Source: Escherichia coli
Lineage (GTDB): Bacteria > Pseudomonadota > Gammaproteobacteria > Enterobacterales > Enterobacteriaceae
Length of the DNA stretch: 64,000 bases
Direction: 5' to 3' (one strand)
Assembly (NCBI RefSeq): GCF_024502345.1
Contig: NZ_JALDNN010000001.1
Shown here: one piece after another, positions 38,805 through 54,024 of the stretch
Position numbering within the stretch: position 1 is the stretch's first letter
How the letters are laid out: each line of letters opens with the position of its first letter
Position numbers and translations under genes: made by a program
The notes under the pieces: model-generated
What the model saw: the letters and a program-made list of their open reading frames with translations, nothing else
What the model was told of the DNA's origin: nothing
The model's database searches: none

Positions 38805-39938
38805 TCAAAACGAAGCTAATTGACCCTGAATCCAGATTTGTTGCACATGTAGCCCGCTATCCAGCGCAACGACGCTGGCGCGTTTGCCCGGTTTAAGCGA
38901 TCCCAGAACACCATCAACACCCAGCATTCGCGCCGGATGCAGCGACGCCATATGGATGGCTTCCGCAGGCGTTACGCCCGTCAACTCGACCATATTGCGC
39001 ACTGCCGCATCAACAGACAGCGTACTGCCCGCCAGCCCACCAGACGCGGTACGGACAACGCCACCGTGCATCTGCACTTCTTCACCACATAACGTATAGC
39101 GACCATCCGGCATCCCAGCTGCCTGCATCGCGTCGGTGATCAGTACGATTCTCTCTTTCGCACAGCAACAACACAGCGACATTGCCGCCGGATGCACATG
39201 ATGACCATCGGCTATCAGTTCCAGCCAGGCGCGCTTGTCCGTTAATCCCGCGCCAACCATTCCCGGTTCGCGGTGATGTAAACCTGTCATCCCGTTATAG
39301 CAATGCACCAGGCCGTCGGCACCAGCATCAAATGCGGCGCGGGTTTGTTGCCAGGTCGCCGCGCTATGCCCCAGCATCACCCTTACGTTTTGCTGTTTAA
39401 GATGGCGGATGGCCTGCAATGCCCCTTCTTTTTCCGGTGCCAGCGCTACCACGCGTAAGGTGTGCTGAGAAACGGCAATCAACTGATCCAGCTCGGCAAT
39501 TTCAAGCTCGCGAAACAACTGCGGCGGATGCGCGCCTTTATTCTGCGGCGTGAAGTACGGTCCTTCGAGATAACTCCCCAGCACTTGCGCACCAGGTCCG
39601 CCGCGTTGGCAACGTTGAGCAATACGTTTCAGCGCCGCATGAATGGTATTAAGCGGCGCGGTTACGGTGGTCGGTAACCAACTGCCGACACCTTCGCGTG
39701 CCTTGTGCATTGCCAGCTTGTCGAGTACATCCGGCGCGTCATCCATTACATCAACGCCCGCACCACCGTGTACATGGGTGTCGATGTAAGCAGGGCAGAG
39801 CAGTTCCGCATCGCGTTCAGTCACGCCCGCTGGAATCGGTTCGATTGCTGCGATGACACCGTCAGCAATACGCAACTGATGGTCATCGAGCCATCCCTCT
39901 TCAGTCAGCAGCCTTCTGGCGCGCAGAACGTGTGTCAT
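38805..39938 (-). CDS. agaA: N-acetylgalactosamine-6-phosphate deacetylase, apparently full length
   Basis: 377-aa NagA-family ORF from ATG at 39938 (overlaps upstream TGA in ATGA) with N-terminal metal-binding HVHGG motif. Confidence 0.85.
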   Translation of the reverse strand: MTHVLRARRLLTEEGWLDDHQLRIADGVIAAIEPIPAGVTERDAELLCPAYIDTHVHGGAGVDVMDDAPDVLDKLAMHKAREGVGSWLPTTVTAPLNTIHAALKRIAQRCQRGGPGAQVLGSYLEGPYFTPQNKGAHPPQLFRELEIAELDQLIAVSQHTLRVVALAPEKEGALQAIRHLKQQNVRVMLGHSAATWQQTRAAFDAGADGLVHCYNGMTGLHHREPGMVGAGLTDKRAWLELIADGHHVHPAAMSLCCCCAKERIVLITDAMQAAGMPDGRYTLCGEEVQMHGGVVRTASGGLAGSTLSVDAAVRNMVELTGVTPAEAIHMASLHPARMLGVDGVLGSLKPGKRASVVALDSGLHVQQIWIQGQLASF

Positions 39939-40078
39939 ATCCCTTCCTCGACCGGACATTCTTCATGGCAGCGGTCTAACTCGTCCACCAGACTGGTCAG
40001 CCCACGATGTCCACACTCCAGCGCCTGTACTCGGAATTCTTCACCGCTTAACCCTTCGCGCTCCAGCACCATCTCCAG
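39935..40078 (-). pseudogene. agaF: 3' remnant (47 codons) of PTS EIIA gene agaF, lacking start
   Basis: In-frame peptide LEMVLEREGLSGEEFRVQALECGHRGLTSLVDELDRCHEECPVEEGI ending in stop that overlaps agaA start; no upstream initiator. Confidence 0.5.
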
Positions 40079-40241
40079 TACCGCCGGTTAAAATACCGGT
40101 ATGCAGATCGCCAAGTACCAGCCCGACTAACGGGCCGAGGACCACCGGGCGGTGCATATGGGTTAAGCCGTTAAACATATCCAGGCCAGCGATAAAGGCG
40201 ATAATGCCCAACGCGAATGCCTGCAACAGACTGATTTCCAT
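40041..40241 (-). pseudogene. agaW: 5' fragment of PTS EIIC gene agaW (54 native codons then frameshifted tail)
   Basis: N-terminus MEISLLQAFALGIIAFIAGLD... parallels AgaC N-terminus, then runs out of frame into agaF remnant. Confidence 0.6.
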
Positions 40242-43086: not shown

Positions 43087-43141
43087 GAAAGGGTTGCCCG
43101 CTGGTCAACACGAATGCGTTCGGCGGGCATTGTGAACACCA

Positions 43142-43606
43142 TCAATGGTTTTCTTCTGTCTCTTGGGTGAGGCTTTCCCAGTCGGCAGGAGGATGTCCTC
43201 TTTTTAACATTTTACTGAATACGGTATAGGCATCTGTTTTTTTACCGTAGGTGCGCAGCGTGTTTTCATCGTTCATCCATCCCAGAATGATGACTTTCTC
43301 TTTTTCACTATAGCGAAAGAAGAGACGATAACGACCAGCATCAAATTTTACCCGTGACCAGTCTTTATTTTTCCCAGAGCCTAACGACTTGCCATGACGG
43401 AATGCCGGTGATGATGGATTGACCGTGATATGCTCCTCAATCACTTTATGGACTACCGCCAATAACTTTGTGGCGGCTTTTCTCTGATAATTTTCAGGAT
43501 CTTTTCCCTTTAATGTCTCGACTTCGGCAACTAAAGCGTCGTAGGTTTCCTGAAAACAGGGATGAGCATATAGCGCCCAACCATTAACCCTTTGTGGAAA
43601 ATCCAT
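43142..43606 (-). CDS. yhaV: type II toxin YhaV (ribosome-dependent mRNA interferase)
   Basis: 154-aa ORF recognised as YhaV; overlaps prlF stop. Confidence 0.9.
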   Translation of the reverse strand: MDFPQRVNGWALYAHPCFQETYDALVAEVETLKGKDPENYQRKAATKLLAVVHKVIEEHITVNPSSPAFRHGKSLGSGKNKDWSRVKFDAGRYRLFFRYSEKEKVIILGWMNDENTLRTYGKKTDAYTVFSKMLKRGHPPADWESLTQETEENH

Positions 43607-43941
43607 TATTCGTCGTCGCCAATCTCATCATCAATGTTGACGTCCATGCCAGCGACAAGTTTCTTTCCTTGTTGAATGTTGAATGGACGAGTTTTTTGCG
43701 GGTTGTTCTGGATATCTGCATCCAGAAAACGCAAAAATGCATTCATAGTATGATCCTCCTGTTCATTTCCCAGTCGGCACATAAATACTTGCCCACCAGG
43801 CAGAATTTCGTAATGAATGCTGTCCTGGCCTGGCTTCAGTTTTAAAGCCTCACGCACTGGCGCGGGGATAGTTGTTTGTCCGCGTATCGTGACCTTTGAT
43901 TCAGTGGTCAGTACAGCGTGAGAGCGAGCATTAGCGGGCAT
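43606..43941 (-). CDS. prlF: antitoxin PrlF/SohA (AbrB/SpoVT-type DNA-binding fold)
   Basis: 111-aa ORF with acidic C-terminal tail; upstream of yhaV. Confidence 0.9.
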   Translation of the reverse strand: MPANARSHAVLTTESKVTIRGQTTIPAPVREALKLKPGQDSIHYEILPGGQVFMCRLGNEQEDHTMNAFLRFLDADIQNNPQKTRPFNIQQGKKLVAGMDVNIDDEIGDDE

Positions 43942-44089
43942 GATTCACTGTCCTTTTACAGCCTGTTTTCTGCTCAAATTATAAGCTTGAAATAAGGTAA
44001 TGCAAATGCATTATTAATGGACGTGGGGGCTTTAAACAATAAAAACATGGCACTAAGGCCATGTTTTGCGAGGGACGTTCCAAAAGAAA

Positions 44090-50350: not shown

Positions 50351-50727
<377 letters not shown>

Positions 50728-50778: not shown

Positions 50779-50891
50779 AGATGAATGACTGTCCACGACA
50801 CTATACTCAAAAGAAAGCGGCTTATTGGTCAGTTTCACCTCTTTTAACGAAAACCCGGCAGCGTAAACTGGCGGGTTTTTGCTTTTTGGAG
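50779..50891 (+). repeat. direct repeat of the rnpB 3' end plus a second terminator-like hairpin
   Basis: agatgaatgactgtccacgaca...ggtcagtttcacct...gggtttttgcttttggag repeats 50678-50770 with divergence; a third truncated start agatgaat at 50901. Confidence 0.75.
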
Positions 50892-52163: not shown

Positions 52164-52655
52164 TCAATAAAAATCATTATTAAAATGATCGGGTGAAAAA
52201 AAGAGAACTTGCCAACAATCTGAAGGAATGGCGGTTTTATTAAAGTACGTAGGGGGGGGTAAGATGGCTTCTTTTCGGGTGAATTTTGCACAATACTTAG
52301 AAATCGTCTCCTTAATACATTCCAGCTCTTTTTTATTGACGGCTGAGCAAGTACATTGTTCACCAAAAGGTGCAAAAGTGCCTACATCTAATGTTTGTAT
52401 GATATAATCATCATGTTCTCCTGTAGAAATATCTATGATGAATGGACTCATATTTTCCGGTTGGATTCGGATCATGACAGAAGGAACATCGCCTTGATAG
52501 AAATTCAATGCAGTAATTGCAGATAATACTCTCCGCAGTTCATTACTTATACTGTAAATTTTATTAACGTCATTGGTGGAGACAATTTCTGCAAACTTTC
52601 TTTTTACCGTCCAATAATCAATATTTCTATTGTGATTGTTAACCACTGCGTGCAT
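52164..52655 (-). CDS. yhaB: uncharacterized protein YhaB, 5' end separated from its first ~12 codons by the IS insertion
   Basis: 163-codon ORF from an internal ATG; in-frame N-terminal extension MKGFPIAHIFHPSIPP is reconstituted only when the IS and one TSD copy are removed. Confidence 0.7.
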   Translation of the reverse strand: MHAVVNNHNRNIDYWTVKRKFAEIVSTNDVNKIYSISNELRRVLSAITALNFYQGDVPSVMIRIQPENMSPFIIDISTGEHDDYIIQTLDVGTFAPFGEQCTCSAVNKKELECIKETISKYCAKFTRKEAILPPPTYFNKTAIPSDCWQVLFFSPDHFNNDFY

Positions 52656-52670
52656 TGGCGGGATTGAAGG

Positions 52671-53727
52671 GGCTTTGTTGAATAAATCAGATTTCGGGTA
52701 AGTCTCCCCCGTAGCGGGTTGTGTTTTCAGGCAATACGCACGCTTTCAGGCATACCTGCTTTCGTCATTTTGTTCAGCGCTCGTACCAGGGCCATAGCCT
52801 CTGCAACCTGACCATCGTAGTCACGCAGTGTCAGTGAACCCCCGAACAGCTGTTTTACCCGGTACATCGCCGTTTCCGCTATCGAGCGACGGTTGTAATC
52901 TGTTGTCCATTTCCACCGCGCATTACTCCCGGTCATTCGCTGATTAGCCACTGCACGGTTACGGTCTGCATATTCACCGGGCCAGTAACCCGCACCTTTT
53001 CGGGGAGGGATAAGCGCGCTGATTTTCTTACGCCGCAGTTCATCGTGACATAGCCGGGTATCGTAAGCGCCATCGGCGGCGGCTGACCTGATTTTCCGGT
53101 GGGTTTGCCGGATTAACCCGGGGAAGGCCTCTGAGTCCGTAACGTTGTTCAGCGACAGGTCAGCGCAGATGATTTCATGTGTTTTACTGTCAACGGCGAG
53201 ATGCAGCTTACGCCAGATACGGCGGCGTTCCTGGCCATGCTTTTTGACTTTCCACTCGCCTTCACCGAAGACCTTCAGCCCGGTGGAATCAATTACCAGG
53301 TGTGCGATTTCACCCCGGGTGGGCGTTTTGAAACTGACATTAACCGACTTTGCCCGCCTGCTGACACAGCTGTAATCCGGGCAGCGTAGCGGAACGTTCA
53401 TCAGAGAAAAAATGGAATCAATAAAGCCCTGCGCAGCGCGCAGGGTCAGCCTGAATACGCGTTTAATGACCAGCACAGTCGTGATGGCAAGGTCAGAATA
53501 GCGCTGAGGTCTGCCTCGTGAAGAAGGTGTTGCTGACTCATACCAGGCCTGAATAGCTTCATCATCCAGCCAGAAAGTTATGGAGCCACGGTTGATGAGG
53601 GCTTTATTGTAGGTGGGCCAGTTGGTGATTTTGAACTTTTGCTTTGCCACGGAACGGTCTGCGTTGTCGGGAAGATACGTGATCTGATCCTTCAACTCAG
53701 CAAAAGTTCGATTTATTCAACAAAGCC
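52671..53727 (-). mobile_element. IS903-family (IS5 family, IS903/IS102 group) insertion sequence, 1057 bp, apparently intact
   Basis: 18-bp terminal inverted repeats GGCTTTGTTGAATAAATC at 52671-52688 and 53710-53727; single transposase ORF; flanked by 9-bp direct repeat GATTGAAGG (52662-52670 and 53728-53736). Confidence 0.9.
52727..53650 (-). CDS. IS903-type DDE transposase
   Basis: ORF ...KQKFKITNWPTYNKALINRGSITFWLDD...LVIDSTGLKVFGEGEW...ADGAYD...MPESVRIA; likely GTG start giving 307 aa (track shows 322-aa TTG-initiated frame to 53695). Confidence 0.85.
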   Translation of the reverse strand: MAKQKFKITNWPTYNKALINRGSITFWLDDEAIQAWYESATPSSRGRPQRYSDLAITTVLVIKRVFRLTLRAAQGFIDSIFSLMNVPLRCPDYSCVSRRAKSVNVSFKTPTRGEIAHLVIDSTGLKVFGEGEWKVKKHGQERRRIWRKLHLAVDSKTHEIICADLSLNNVTDSEAFPGLIRQTHRKIRSAAADGAYDTRLCHDELRRKKISALIPPRKGAGYWPGEYADRNRAVANQRMTGSNARWKWTTDYNRRSIAETAMYRVKQLFGGSLTLRDYDGQVAEAMALVRALNKMTKAGMPESVRIA

Positions 53728-54024
53728 GATTGAAGGGTGAAAAATATGTGCAATTGGGAAGCCTTTCATTGATGCCTGCCTTGTCGTCATGACAAACAAT
53801 AATAGATGCTTATTTTCCTCGCACGACACTTACGCACTATCAAAAAACGCTCATTTACCCGGCGTTACAGTAAACGAAGCAACATTCTGTGTCCTACGCT
53901 GATGTAAAGCACAGTGAAAATCCCCCTTGTTGACTTCGTCTGACCTTATCGCGGCGACCAGCAATTATTCGTTTTGTGATCCTCAACACAAAATGCTATT
54001 CGTCGCCTATGAGGGGAGAAGAAT

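What the first reader, a model, noticed from the sequence alone, without database searches (positions are those of the whole stretch)
43142..43941. prlF-yhaV type II toxin-antitoxin module between the aga and gar loci
A 111-aa AbrB-like antitoxin and 154-aa toxin overlap by one base in the expected antitoxin-first order. This is a known module; it is noted because it sits at the junction of two sugar-catabolism islands and, with the IS element, is the only addiction-type function in the window.
Basis: established knowledge. Interest (0 to 1): 0.15.

Follow-up and report, generated by a model that had tools for sequence, protein, structure and literature searches.

The report
Known prlF-yhaV toxin-antitoxin pair
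This is the well-known E. coli prlF-yhaV toxin-antitoxin gene pair in its usual chromosomal place between agaR and garD, apparently intact, so the finding is correct but ordinary.

Summary
The observation and the interpretation both hold. On the minus strand, prlF (43941-43606, 111 aa) and yhaV (43606-43142, 154 aa) share one base (TAATG). They score far above the curated cut-offs of the PrlF and YhaV families. They are 99% and 97% identical to E. coli K-12 b3129 and b3130. They lie between agaR and garD, as in about 5,100 of 5,426 complete E. coli genomes.

A sigma-70-type promoter sits upstream, with TTTGCA, a 17-nt spacer and TATAAT. A perfect palindrome, TAATGCA-NN-TGCATTA (43998-44013), overlaps its -35 hexamer. 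The same core recurs, twice, upstream of a PrlF-YhaV pair only 35%/51% identical, so it is probably the autoregulatory operator.

A confident AlphaFold model of YhaV (pLDDT 96) matches only RelE/ParE-type toxins. All family-invariant residues are present.

The allele is a rare natural one: YhaV G89D, PrlF D59N and a promoter-spacer G>T. G89D lies in a variable hairpin turn, and nothing shows it inactivates the toxin.

One side observation: prlF contains the (CATTCAA)x2 heptamer, the known prlF1 hot spot. The window has the wild-type two copies, but about 0.4% of complete genomes carry 3 to 19 copies.

Verdict: already known, low interest.

The parts
43606..43941 (-). prlF, antitoxin and autorepressor (111 aa; allele with D59N relative to K-12)
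   Evidence: ORF. PF15937 E=1e-41 and NF007429 equivalog E=2e-50. 110/111 identical to K-12 b3129. The exact protein is present in public data on 331 contigs.
43142..43606 (-). yhaV, RelE-superfamily ribonuclease toxin (154 aa; allele with G89D, T144S, R147Q, T153N relative to K-12)
   Evidence: ORF. PF11663 E=1.2e-53. 150/154 identical to K-12 b3130. The AlphaFold2 model has pLDDT 96.3 and its best PDB fold matches are PfiT, RelE, HigB2 and YoeB/ParE. All family-invariant residues are present.
43606..43606 (-). One-base stop/start overlap (TAATG) between prlF and yhaV
   Evidence: Read directly from the sequence. It fits translational coupling within a single transcript; PMC5535158 reports a single transcript for this operon.
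43978..44006 (-). Predicted sigma-70 promoter of the operon: -35 TTTGCA (44006-44001), 17-nt spacer, -10 TATAAT (43983-43978)
   Evidence: Consensus scan, 10 of 12 matches. This is a prediction only; no transcription start was mapped here.
43998..44013 (.). Perfect palindrome TAATGCA-NN-TGCATTA over the -35 hexamer; candidate PrlF-YhaV operator
   Evidence: one match in the window against 0.01 expected by chance. It is invariant in all E. coli loci fetched. It is also present upstream of the distant PrlF-YhaV pair in L016, as an exact copy plus a one-mismatch copy. Binding to a palindrome in this promoter is reported by Schmidt et al. 2007, as summarised in PMC7781912.
43951..43955 (-). Shine-Dalgarno-like AAGGA about 10 nt before the prlF ATG
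   Evidence: Read from the sequence. Inference.
43672..43685 (-). Heptanucleotide tandem repeat (CATTCAA)x2 inside prlF (codons 86-90), the prlF1 slippage hot spot; wild-type copy number here
   Evidence: The 7-bp duplication at this site is described in PMC7686311 and PMC12107188. Natural alleles with 3 to 19 copies were seen.
43341..43341 (-). Variant base that gives YhaV G89D (GGT>GAT)
   Evidence: The 50-mer carrying it is exact in 27 of 5,001 complete E. coli genomes. The position is variable in the family and lies in a beta-hairpin turn.
43767..43767 (-). Variant base that gives PrlF D59N (GAT>AAT)
   Evidence: The 61-mer is exact in 2 of 3,620 complete genomes. The column is variable in the PrlF alignment A2.
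43992..43992 (-). Promoter-spacer variant (G>T relative to K-12), outside both hexamers and outside the palindrome
   Evidence: No complete genome showed a full-length exact match of the 61-mer. It is natural nonetheless: L006 and several other assemblies share it.
44042..44067 (-). garD intrinsic-terminator hairpin (10-bp stem followed by a T run); upstream boundary of the prlF-yhaV unit
43095..43129 (-). Weak hairpin in the 55-nt gap between the convergent yhaV and agaR genes; possible terminator, not supported statistically
   Evidence: Fold of -19.3 kcal/mol with z = -1.67 against shuffles. The terminator scan did not call it.

Best explanation
This is the chromosomal type II toxin-antitoxin operon prlF-yhaV of Escherichia coli, in its ancestral position between agaR and garD.

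From sequence and the literature, it most likely works as follows. One sigma-70 promoter drives a bicistronic mRNA. PrlF is translated first, and yhaV translation is coupled to it through the TAATG overlap. PrlF has an AbrB/MazE-like DNA-binding N-terminal domain and an acidic C-terminal tail. It binds YhaV, a RelE/ParE-fold ribosome-dependent mRNA endonuclease, and neutralises it. The PrlF-YhaV complex binds the palindrome TAATGCA-NN-TGCATTA, which overlaps the -35 hexamer, and so represses its own operon. If PrlF is lost, free YhaV cleaves mRNA and arrests growth.

Shown here: identity, gene architecture, synteny, the palindrome and its conservation in a distant homologue, the RelE-type predicted fold, and retention of all family-invariant residues. 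Taken from the literature or inferred: complex formation, DNA binding, RNase activity and growth arrest. The copy in this window is a rare natural allele (YhaV G89D, PrlF D59N, promoter-spacer G>T) that I judge to be probably functional.
For: ORFs and the one-base overlap. Family HMMs far above their curated cut-offs. 99% and 97% protein identity to K-12 b3129 and b3130. The same agaR | yhaV prlF | garD order in K-12, in TB06051 and in 5,122 of 5,426 complete genomes at 80% coverage or more. Promoter prediction with 10 of 12 matches, and a palindrome unique in the window (0.01 expected) over the -35 hexamer. The same palindrome core occurs twice upstream of a PrlF-YhaV pair only 35%/51% identical. 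In 3 of 4 diverse YhaV homologues a PrlF-family gene sits directly upstream. The YhaV model has pLDDT 96.3, and its top 40 or so PDB fold matches are nearly all RelE, HigB, YoeB, ParE or PfiT toxins. Invariant or near-invariant residues P64, G72, W83, R85, K87, R94, L95, F96, W110, N112, D113 and R118 are all present. The review PMC5408214 says that replacing two conserved arginines abolishes activity. The biochemistry (PrlF2-YhaV4 complex, palindrome binding, ribosome-dependent cleavage) is summarised in PMC7781912.
Against: Nothing contradicts the identification. Several things limit the functional claim.

- G89D puts an acidic residue where none of 95 aligned family representatives has Asp. 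The site lies in the hairpin between the strands that carry R85/K87 and R94, so reduced toxin activity cannot be excluded.
- The AbrB-like assignment of the PrlF N-terminus is sub-threshold by sequence, and the PrlF model was unusable (pLDDT 40.6).
- No terminator was convincingly found after yhaV.
- A role in 'addiction' is not established for this chromosomal copy (PMC5960147).
Confidence: 0.95

Rival explanations
1. The module is present, but the toxin is attenuated or inactive in this lineage because of G89D, with D59N and the promoter change possibly compensating or following. It would then be a decaying toxin-antitoxin pair in which PrlF acts mainly as a regulator.
For: G89D is rare, found in 27 of 5,001 complete genomes. 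Asp never occurs at this position in 95 aligned representatives. The site lies in the turn between the strands bearing the invariant basic residues R85/K87 and R94. Loss-of-function yhaV mutations are repeatedly selected in chemostats (PMC5960147). Three assemblies with the identical YhaV allele carry frameshifting heptamer expansions in prlF.
Against: Position 89 is one of the most variable columns of the core (L, G, F, Y, M, A, N, H, I, plus gaps), next to an indel-prone turn. All invariant residues are intact, and the AlphaFold2 model made with the D89 sequence is very confident. The allele persists full-length, without frameshift or stop, on 133 contigs. The prlF frameshifts are not informative, because the same kind of frameshift (prlF1) is tolerated in K-12 with wild-type YhaV (PMC12107188).
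Confidence: 0.12
2. The pair is functional, but its biologically relevant output is not post-segregational killing ('addiction'). Instead it modulates stress physiology: PrlF-dependent activation of Lon and lower ompF expression that alters beta-lactam susceptibility. This output would be tuned by slippage at the heptamer repeat inside prlF.
For: The (CATTCAA)x2 repeat is present at 43672-43685. The 7-bp duplication at this site is repeatedly selected in laboratory evolution. It derepresses the operon, raises Lon activity and confers resistance to carbenicillin, aztreonam and D-valine (PMC7686311, PMC12107188). Alleles with 3 to 19 copies exist in about 20 of 5,155 complete genomes and in 3 assemblies of this lineage. 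The module is a fixed core-genome locus, not on a mobile element.
Against: The window carries the wild-type two-copy allele, so nothing here shows switching. Expanded alleles are rare (about 0.4%) and may be passage or assembly-time mutations rather than adaptive states. The link between PrlF and Lon is mechanistically unexplained in the literature.
Confidence: 0.3
3. The pair is a dedicated anti-phage defence system that works by abortive infection through YhaV.
For: Many type II toxin-antitoxin systems have been linked to phage defence (general knowledge). One distant YhaV homologue lies in a prophage-like setting, next to CI- and Cro-like repressors (L018).
Against: Neither protein hits any of the 5,027 PADLOC models. 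The papers read give no phage phenotype. The locus lies between housekeeping catabolic operons, not in a defence island.
Confidence: 0.05

Closest known systems
E. coli K-12 PrlF (SohA, b3129) / YhaV (b3130) type II toxin-antitoxin system (Schmidt et al. 2007; Choi et al. 2017)
   Same: Orthologous. Protein identity is 99% and 97%. Protein lengths, the TAATG overlap and the flanking genes (agaR, garD) are the same. Apart from the single G>T change in the promoter spacer, the upstream region aligned here, with the palindrome and the garD terminator, is identical, and the heptamer repeat has the same copy number.
   Different: Five amino-acid substitutions: PrlF D59N, and YhaV G89D, T144S, R147Q and T153N. 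There is also one G>T change in the promoter spacer. G89D, D59N and the spacer change are rare among complete genomes.
RelE/ParE-superfamily ribosome-dependent mRNA interferases (RelE, HigB, YoeB, YafQ; PfiT)
   Same: The predicted YhaV core matches solved RelE, HigB2, YoeB/ParE and PfiT structures: Foldseek probability 0.98-1.0 for most of the top 20, TM-score on the target 0.6-0.79. It has conserved basic residues on the sheet.
   Different: There is no detectable sequence similarity to any solved chain, even with a 65-sequence profile. YhaV is about 60 residues longer, with extra helices (16-35, 44-60, 143-152). Its partner is an AbrB/MazE-type antitoxin rather than a RelB/HigA type.
MazE/AbrB (SpoVT_AbrB, PF04014) antitoxins
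   Same: PrlF residues 15-52 align to the AbrB-family DNA-binding domain in the expected register. The antitoxin gene comes first, and a palindromic operator sits in the promoter.
   Different: The matches fall below the curated cut-offs. The C-terminal toxin-binding part is specific to the PrlF family. The partner toxin has a RelE fold, not a MazF/CcdB fold.

Membership tests
PrlF-YhaV type II toxin-antitoxin system | The antitoxin matches the PrlF family model above its curated cut-off | tested here: met
   PF15937 scores 141.5 bits (cut-off 32). The NF007429 equivalog scores 169.5 bits (cut-off 125) and covers residues 1-111.
PrlF-YhaV type II toxin-antitoxin system | The toxin matches the YhaV family model above its curated cut-off | tested here: met
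   PF11663 scores 181.3 bits (cut-off 35) and covers residues 12-150. NCBIfam has no hit for the toxin, but RefSeq annotates the orthologues as YhaV.
PrlF-YhaV type II toxin-antitoxin system | Orthology to E. coli b3129/b3130 by identity and synteny | tested here: met
   110/111 and 150/154 identical. The agaR | yhaV prlF | garD order is the same as in K-12.
PrlF-YhaV type II toxin-antitoxin system | Antitoxin-first bicistronic operon with tightly coupled genes | tested here: met
   One-base TAATG overlap. The same order, with gaps of 2 to 5 nt, is seen in distant homologues L015-L017.
PrlF-YhaV type II toxin-antitoxin system | Palindromic operator in its own promoter, bound by the complex (autoregulation) | tested here: met
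   The sequence part is met. The palindrome at 43998-44013 overlaps the -35 hexamer, and its core is conserved in the distant locus L016. Binding itself cannot be tested with these tools; it is reported in the literature (PMC7781912).
PrlF-YhaV type II toxin-antitoxin system | Conserved residues of the toxin, including the arginines needed for activity | tested here: met
   P64, G72, W83, R85, K87, R94, L95, F96, I106, W110, N112, D113, R118 and F130 are all present. Which two arginines were mutated in the original study could not be checked, because the paper is not held.
PrlF-YhaV type II toxin-antitoxin system | The toxin arrests growth by ribosome-dependent mRNA cleavage, and the antitoxin neutralises it | not testable with these tools
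   Experimental property. Known for the K-12 proteins (PMC7781912).
RelE/ParE toxin superfamily (fold) | RelE-type alpha/beta fold with an antiparallel sheet packed on helices | tested here: met
   AlphaFold2 pLDDT 96.3. The best Foldseek PDB matches are 9w3a PfiT (E=1.6e-4), 4fxh/4fxe RelE, 5ja8 HigB2, 2khe RelE and 6n90 YoeB/ParE. This rests on a predicted structure, not a solved one.
RelE/ParE toxin superfamily (sequence) | Detectable sequence homology to solved RelE-family members | tested here: not met
   phmmer and a 65-sequence profile against all PDB chains gave only chance-level hits with E of 0.01 or more. The relationship is visible only at the fold level.
AbrB/MazE (swapped-hairpin) DNA-binding antitoxins | N-terminal SpoVT/AbrB-type domain | tested here: inconclusive
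   TIGR01439 scores 27.1 bits against a cut-off of 28.3 (E=2.6e-6). PF04014 scores 19.5 against 24.7. The profile matches the AbrB-family regulators 5itj, 2l66 and 5itm at E about 0.006, over residues 15-52. The homologue in L016 has a PF04014 hit on record. The AlphaFold2 model of PrlF was unusable, pLDDT 40.6.
Catalogued anti-phage defence systems (PADLOC) | Match to a PADLOC protein model | tested here: not met
   No hit for either protein at E of 0.01 or less.
Plasmid-type addiction (post-segregational killing) module | Located on a mobile replicon and stabilises it | tested here: not met
   The locus is chromosomal and lies at the same core-genome site in nearly all E. coli; 5,886 of 5,889 matching places are on chromosomes. 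Killing on loss cannot be tested here.

The most novel reading that the evidence does not exclude
The heptanucleotide repeat (CATTCAA)n inside prlF (43672-43685, two copies here) may be more than a laboratory hot spot. It could be a natural contingency-type tandem repeat that varies in copy number. Slippage would reversibly switch PrlF between three states: full length, C-terminally truncated (frameshifted, with the operon derepressed and Lon activated), and in-frame expanded forms. E. coli populations would thereby gain heritable variation in envelope and beta-lactam stress tolerance. In that case the rare D59N/G89D/promoter allele in this window would be one of several lineages in which this locus is evolving actively.
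Probability: 0.15. Interest if true: 0.5.

Novelty: already known. Interest (0 to 1): 0.1.

Why it matters
The finding itself adds little. It correctly labels a textbook E. coli toxin-antitoxin locus and gives an annotator confidence that the pair is intact. Three by-products have modest value.

1. The operator core TAATGCA-NN-TGCATTA is conserved between E. coli and a very distant PrlF-YhaV pair. That gives a testable recognition motif for the family.
2. No PrlF or YhaV structure exists in the PDB, yet YhaV models with very high confidence as an enlarged RelE fold.
3. The prlF1 heptamer hot spot, known from laboratory selections for beta-lactam tolerance and Lon activation, shows natural copy-number variation from 3 to 19 copies. 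If this variation is adaptive, a toxin-antitoxin antitoxin would serve as a mutational switch for stress tolerance.

Tried and rejected
- I tried to read Schmidt et al. 2007 (PMC2699681) for the mapped operator and the mutated arginines. The paper is not held, so I relied on reviews.
- Sequence searches of both proteins against all PDB chains, singly and as profiles, found no PrlF or YhaV structure and no significant RelE hit. For PrlF the top profile hits were designed repeat proteins, which are summed weak repeats (an artefact). The AbrB-family hits at E about 0.006 are the meaningful ones.
- AlphaFold2 of PrlF from a 4-sequence alignment gave pLDDT 40.6 and was discarded, so no fold search was run on it.
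- I considered that G89D marks a dead toxin. It remains a minority view, because the column is variable and all invariant residues are intact.
- I considered using the co-occurrence of prlF frameshifts with the G89D allele as evidence that the toxin is inactive. I rejected this because the same kind of frameshift is tolerated with wild-type YhaV in K-12.
- I looked for a terminator after yhaV. Only a hairpin that is not significant against shuffles was found (z = -1.67).
- I looked for a second operator copy in the window, allowing up to 3 mismatches. None was found.
- The PADLOC scan for defence-system membership was negative.
- The Rfam scan for type I toxin-antitoxin RNAs in the window was negative.

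Full report
**1. Observation.**
Searches show two minus-strand ORFs at exactly the reported coordinates. The first runs from 43941 to 43606 (111 aa). The second runs from 43606 to 43142 (154 aa). The sequence GAATAATGGAT makes the last base of the first gene's TAA stop the first base of the second gene's ATG. The overlap is therefore one base, and the smaller gene comes first.

**2. Identity.**
The 111-aa protein matches Pfam PF15937 (PrlF_antitoxin) at E=1e-41, 141.5 bits against a cut-off of 32. It matches the NCBIfam PrlF equivalog NF007429 at E=2e-50, 169.5 bits against a cut-off of 125. The 154-aa protein matches PF11663 (Toxin_YhaV) at E=1.2e-53, 181.3 bits against a cut-off of 35.

Against E. 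coli K-12 MG1655, PrlF is 110/111 identical (D59N). YhaV is 150/154 identical (G89D, T144S, R147Q, T153N).

A 1.2-kb query across the locus matches 5,359 of 5,426 complete E. coli genomes, and 5,122 of them at 80% coverage or more. Nearly all matches are on chromosomes. Every hit listed is annotated yhaV, prlF, garD and agaR. The gene order agaR (+) | yhaV (-) prlF (-) | garD (-) is the same as in K-12 and in strain TB06051.

**3. Regulatory anatomy.**
The 148-nt gap between garD and prlF holds three features.
- The garD terminator hairpin lies at 44042-44067.
- A promoter-like site has -35 TTTGCA (44006-44001), a 17-nt spacer and a consensus -10 TATAAT (43983-43978), 10 of 12 matches.
- A perfect palindrome, TAATGCA-NN-TGCATTA, lies at 43998-44013 over the -35 hexamer. 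It occurs once in the window, against 0.01 matches expected by chance.

The palindrome is invariant in every E. coli locus I fetched. The same core also occurs upstream of a very distant PrlF-YhaV pair on metagenome contig L016, where PrlF is 35% and YhaV 51% identical. There it appears as two adjacent copies, GGTAATGCAAACGCATTACC and GGTAATGCAAATGCATTACC, between a TTGACA hexamer and the start codon.

Conservation of the motif at that protein distance is good comparative evidence that it is the PrlF recognition site. It agrees with the report that the PrlF2-YhaV4 complex binds a palindrome in this promoter (Schmidt et al. 2007, as summarised in PMC7781912). I found no second copy in the window with up to 3 mismatches. 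Downstream of yhaV, the 55-nt gap to the convergent agaR holds only a hairpin that is not significant against shuffles (z = -1.67).

**4. The toxin.**
A search of 1.84 billion representative proteins found 980 relatives at E of 0.001 or less. In an alignment of 102 near-full-length representatives, and in a curated set of 65, the following residues are invariant or nearly so: P64, G72, W83, R85, K87, R94, L95, F96, I106, W110, N112, D113, R118 and F130. All are present in the window protein.

No PDB chain matches YhaV by sequence, even with the 65-sequence profile. AlphaFold2 with that alignment gives a very confident model (pLDDT 96.3, pTM 0.91). Foldseek against the PDB returns almost only RelE/ParE-superfamily toxins: PfiT 9w3a, RelE 4fxh/4fxe, HigB2 5ja8, HP0892, RelE 2khe and YoeB/ParE 6n90. 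Probabilities are 0.98-1.0 for most of the top 20, and the TM-score on the target is 0.6-0.79.

YhaV is thus an enlarged RelE-fold protein. This fits its description as a ribosome-dependent mRNA interferase (PMC7781912).

**5. The antitoxin.**
Residues 15-39 give sub-threshold matches to AbrB/MazE-type domains. TIGR01439 scores 27.1 bits against a cut-off of 28.3 (E=2.6e-6). PF04014 scores 19.5 against 24.7. A 4-sequence PrlF profile hits solved AbrB-family regulators (5itj, 2l66, 5itm) at E about 0.006 in the expected register. The better-scoring designed repeat proteins in that search are artefacts of summed weak repeats. An AlphaFold2 model of PrlF from only 4 sequences failed (pLDDT 40.6). 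'AbrB-like' is therefore consistent with my tests and with the literature, but I did not establish it independently.

**6. Family architecture.**
I looked up the genomic contexts of four diverse YhaV homologues, 56% to 39% identical. Three have a PrlF-family gene immediately upstream, 2 to 5 nt away (L015, L016, L017). One (L018) has an unrelated 63-aa ORF upstream and sits in a prophage-like context. L015 lies next to a TraI relaxase, so it is plasmid-like. The antitoxin-first arrangement is therefore a family trait, and relatives do occur on mobile elements. The E. coli copy has a lower G+C content (yhaV 43.7%, prlF 47.0%) than its neighbours (52.5-55%), which fits an old horizontal origin.

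**7. What is particular about this copy.**
Three changes are absent from both K-12 and the closest complete genome.
- YhaV G89D (43341): the 50-mer carrying it is exact in 27 of 5,001 complete genomes.
- PrlF D59N (43767): the 61-mer is exact in 2 of 3,620.
- A G>T change in the promoter spacer (43992): no complete genome gave a full-length exact match.

The haplotype is natural. Assembly GCA_032324195.1 (L006) differs from the window by 1 nt in 3,465, and several others are near-identical. The exact proteins are on 331 contigs (PrlF) and 133 contigs (YhaV).

Position 89 is a highly variable column (L 31, G 24, F 23, and others). It lies in the turn between strands 84-88 and 93-100. Asp was seen in none of 95 representatives, and the turn joins the strands that carry R85/K87 and R94. 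I therefore give a minority probability, about 0.12, to an attenuated toxin. D59N falls in a variable linker column. The spacer change touches neither hexamer nor the palindrome.

**8. The 'addiction' label and the rest of the window.**
The annotated syntenic regions list the following genes, in order:
- argG, metY, rimP-nusA-infB-rbfA-truB, rpsO, pnp, nlpI, deaD and mtr;
- the yhb and ubi genes, the yra genes, and lpoA, rsmI and yraHIJK;
- the aga cluster, agaR, yhaV-prlF, garD and garPLRK;
- rnpB, yhaC, yhaB, and tdcR followed by the tdc operon from tdcA to tdcG.

No other toxin-antitoxin genes appear, and Rfam finds no type I toxin-antitoxin RNAs.

'Addiction' is a label for the class. For this chromosomal locus the literature shows that yhaV knock-outs are viable and are selected in nutrient-limited chemostats (PMC5960147). 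The best-documented phenotypes come from prlF mutations. Neither protein matches any PADLOC defence model.

**9. Side observation: the heptamer repeat.**
prlF codons 86-90 contain (CATTCAA)x2 at 43672-43685. This is the site of the classical prlF1 7-bp duplication. That duplication recurs in laboratory evolution, truncates the acidic C-terminus, derepresses the operon, raises Lon activity and confers resistance to carbenicillin, aztreonam and D-valine (PMC7686311, PMC12107188).

The window has the wild-type two copies. Three assemblies with the identical YhaV allele carry 4, 6 and 9 copies. The gene lengths called there (123 and 112 aa) match my simulated frameshift products.

A 3-copy probe against 5,155 complete genomes found 11 genomes with exactly 3 copies. 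It also found single genomes with 4, 5, 6, 7, 9, 11, 12, 14 and 19 copies. I read the 19-copy allele (AREA_497, annotated as a pseudogene) and the in-frame 14-copy allele (SCU-106, annotated as a 139-aa PrlF) directly.

Two full-text searches found no paper that describes this natural copy-number variation. That is not proof that it is unreported. This is the basis of the 'novel case'. It concerns the gene in general, not this window's allele.

**10. Verdict.**
The finding is a correct identification of an already known, well-characterised module in its canonical location. Novelty: already known. Interest: low (0.1).

Noticed in passing
window 43672-43685 (minus strand); L008, L013, L014, L019, L020: The prlF1 hot spot (CATTCAA)x2 varies in copy number in natural genomes. 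There are 11 complete genomes with 3 copies, and single genomes with 4, 5, 6, 7, 9, 11, 12, 14 (in frame, annotated as a 139-aa PrlF) and 19 copies (annotated as a pseudogene). Three assemblies of this window's YhaV lineage have 4, 6 and 9 copies. That is about 0.4% of complete E. coli genomes. The papers searched do not describe this natural variation.
   Followed up: partly
window 52672-53728: A 1,057-bp IS903-like element (IS5 family) with a transposase ORF at 52727-53695 on the minus strand. It has terminal inverted repeats GGCTTTGTTGAATAAATC... and a 9-bp target-site duplication GATTGAAGG. It is inserted about 30 nt into the 5' end of yhaB, leaving a 163-aa N-terminally truncated ORF at 52164-52655. 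Strain 19SZHZ803Rt has an IS903B at a different site, in tdcA.
   Followed up: partly
window 40062-40080: An approximately 1.77-kb deletion relative to strains with an intact aga cluster. It removes most of agaF, all of agaE and most of agaW (the GalNAc PTS components), across a 19-bp stretch shared by both sides. agaA/nagA (38805-39959) stays intact. The breakpoints differ from the K-12 agaW'-agaA' deletion. The junction was found in none of 5,314 complete E. coli genomes with a match.
   Followed up: partly
L016 310-366: A distant PrlF-YhaV pair (35%/51% identity) has two adjacent 20-bp palindromes upstream, GGTAATGCAAA(C/T)GCATTACC. They share the TAATGCA-NN-TGCATTA core of the single E. 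coli site. This suggests a family-wide operator motif with a variable number of sites.
   Followed up: partly
L015 and L018: YhaV homologues occur in mobile contexts. L015 lies beside a TraI relaxase and has a short or split PrlF (37 + 77 aa). L018 lies beside CI- and Cro-like repressors and has an unrelated 63-aa upstream ORF instead of a PrlF-family gene, possibly a different antitoxin.
   Followed up: no
literature / PDB (no window coordinates): The review PMC7781912 labels PDB 2KHE as 'YhaV monomer'. The PDB description of 2khe is RelE from Thermus thermophilus, and no PDB chain matches YhaV or PrlF by sequence. There appears to be no solved structure of either protein.
   Followed up: yes
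window 50840-50875: The stretch just after rnpB (50351-50727) is about 160 nt shorter than in strain TB06051 (35 nt against 196 nt between the aligned blocks), so this is an indel-variable intergenic region.
   Followed up: no
window 1-64000: The whole window is only about 99% identical to its best matches among 5,426 complete E. coli genomes. Yet draft assemblies such as GCA_032324195.1 match the prlF-yhaV region almost exactly. The source lineage is therefore poorly represented among complete genomes.
   Followed up: partly
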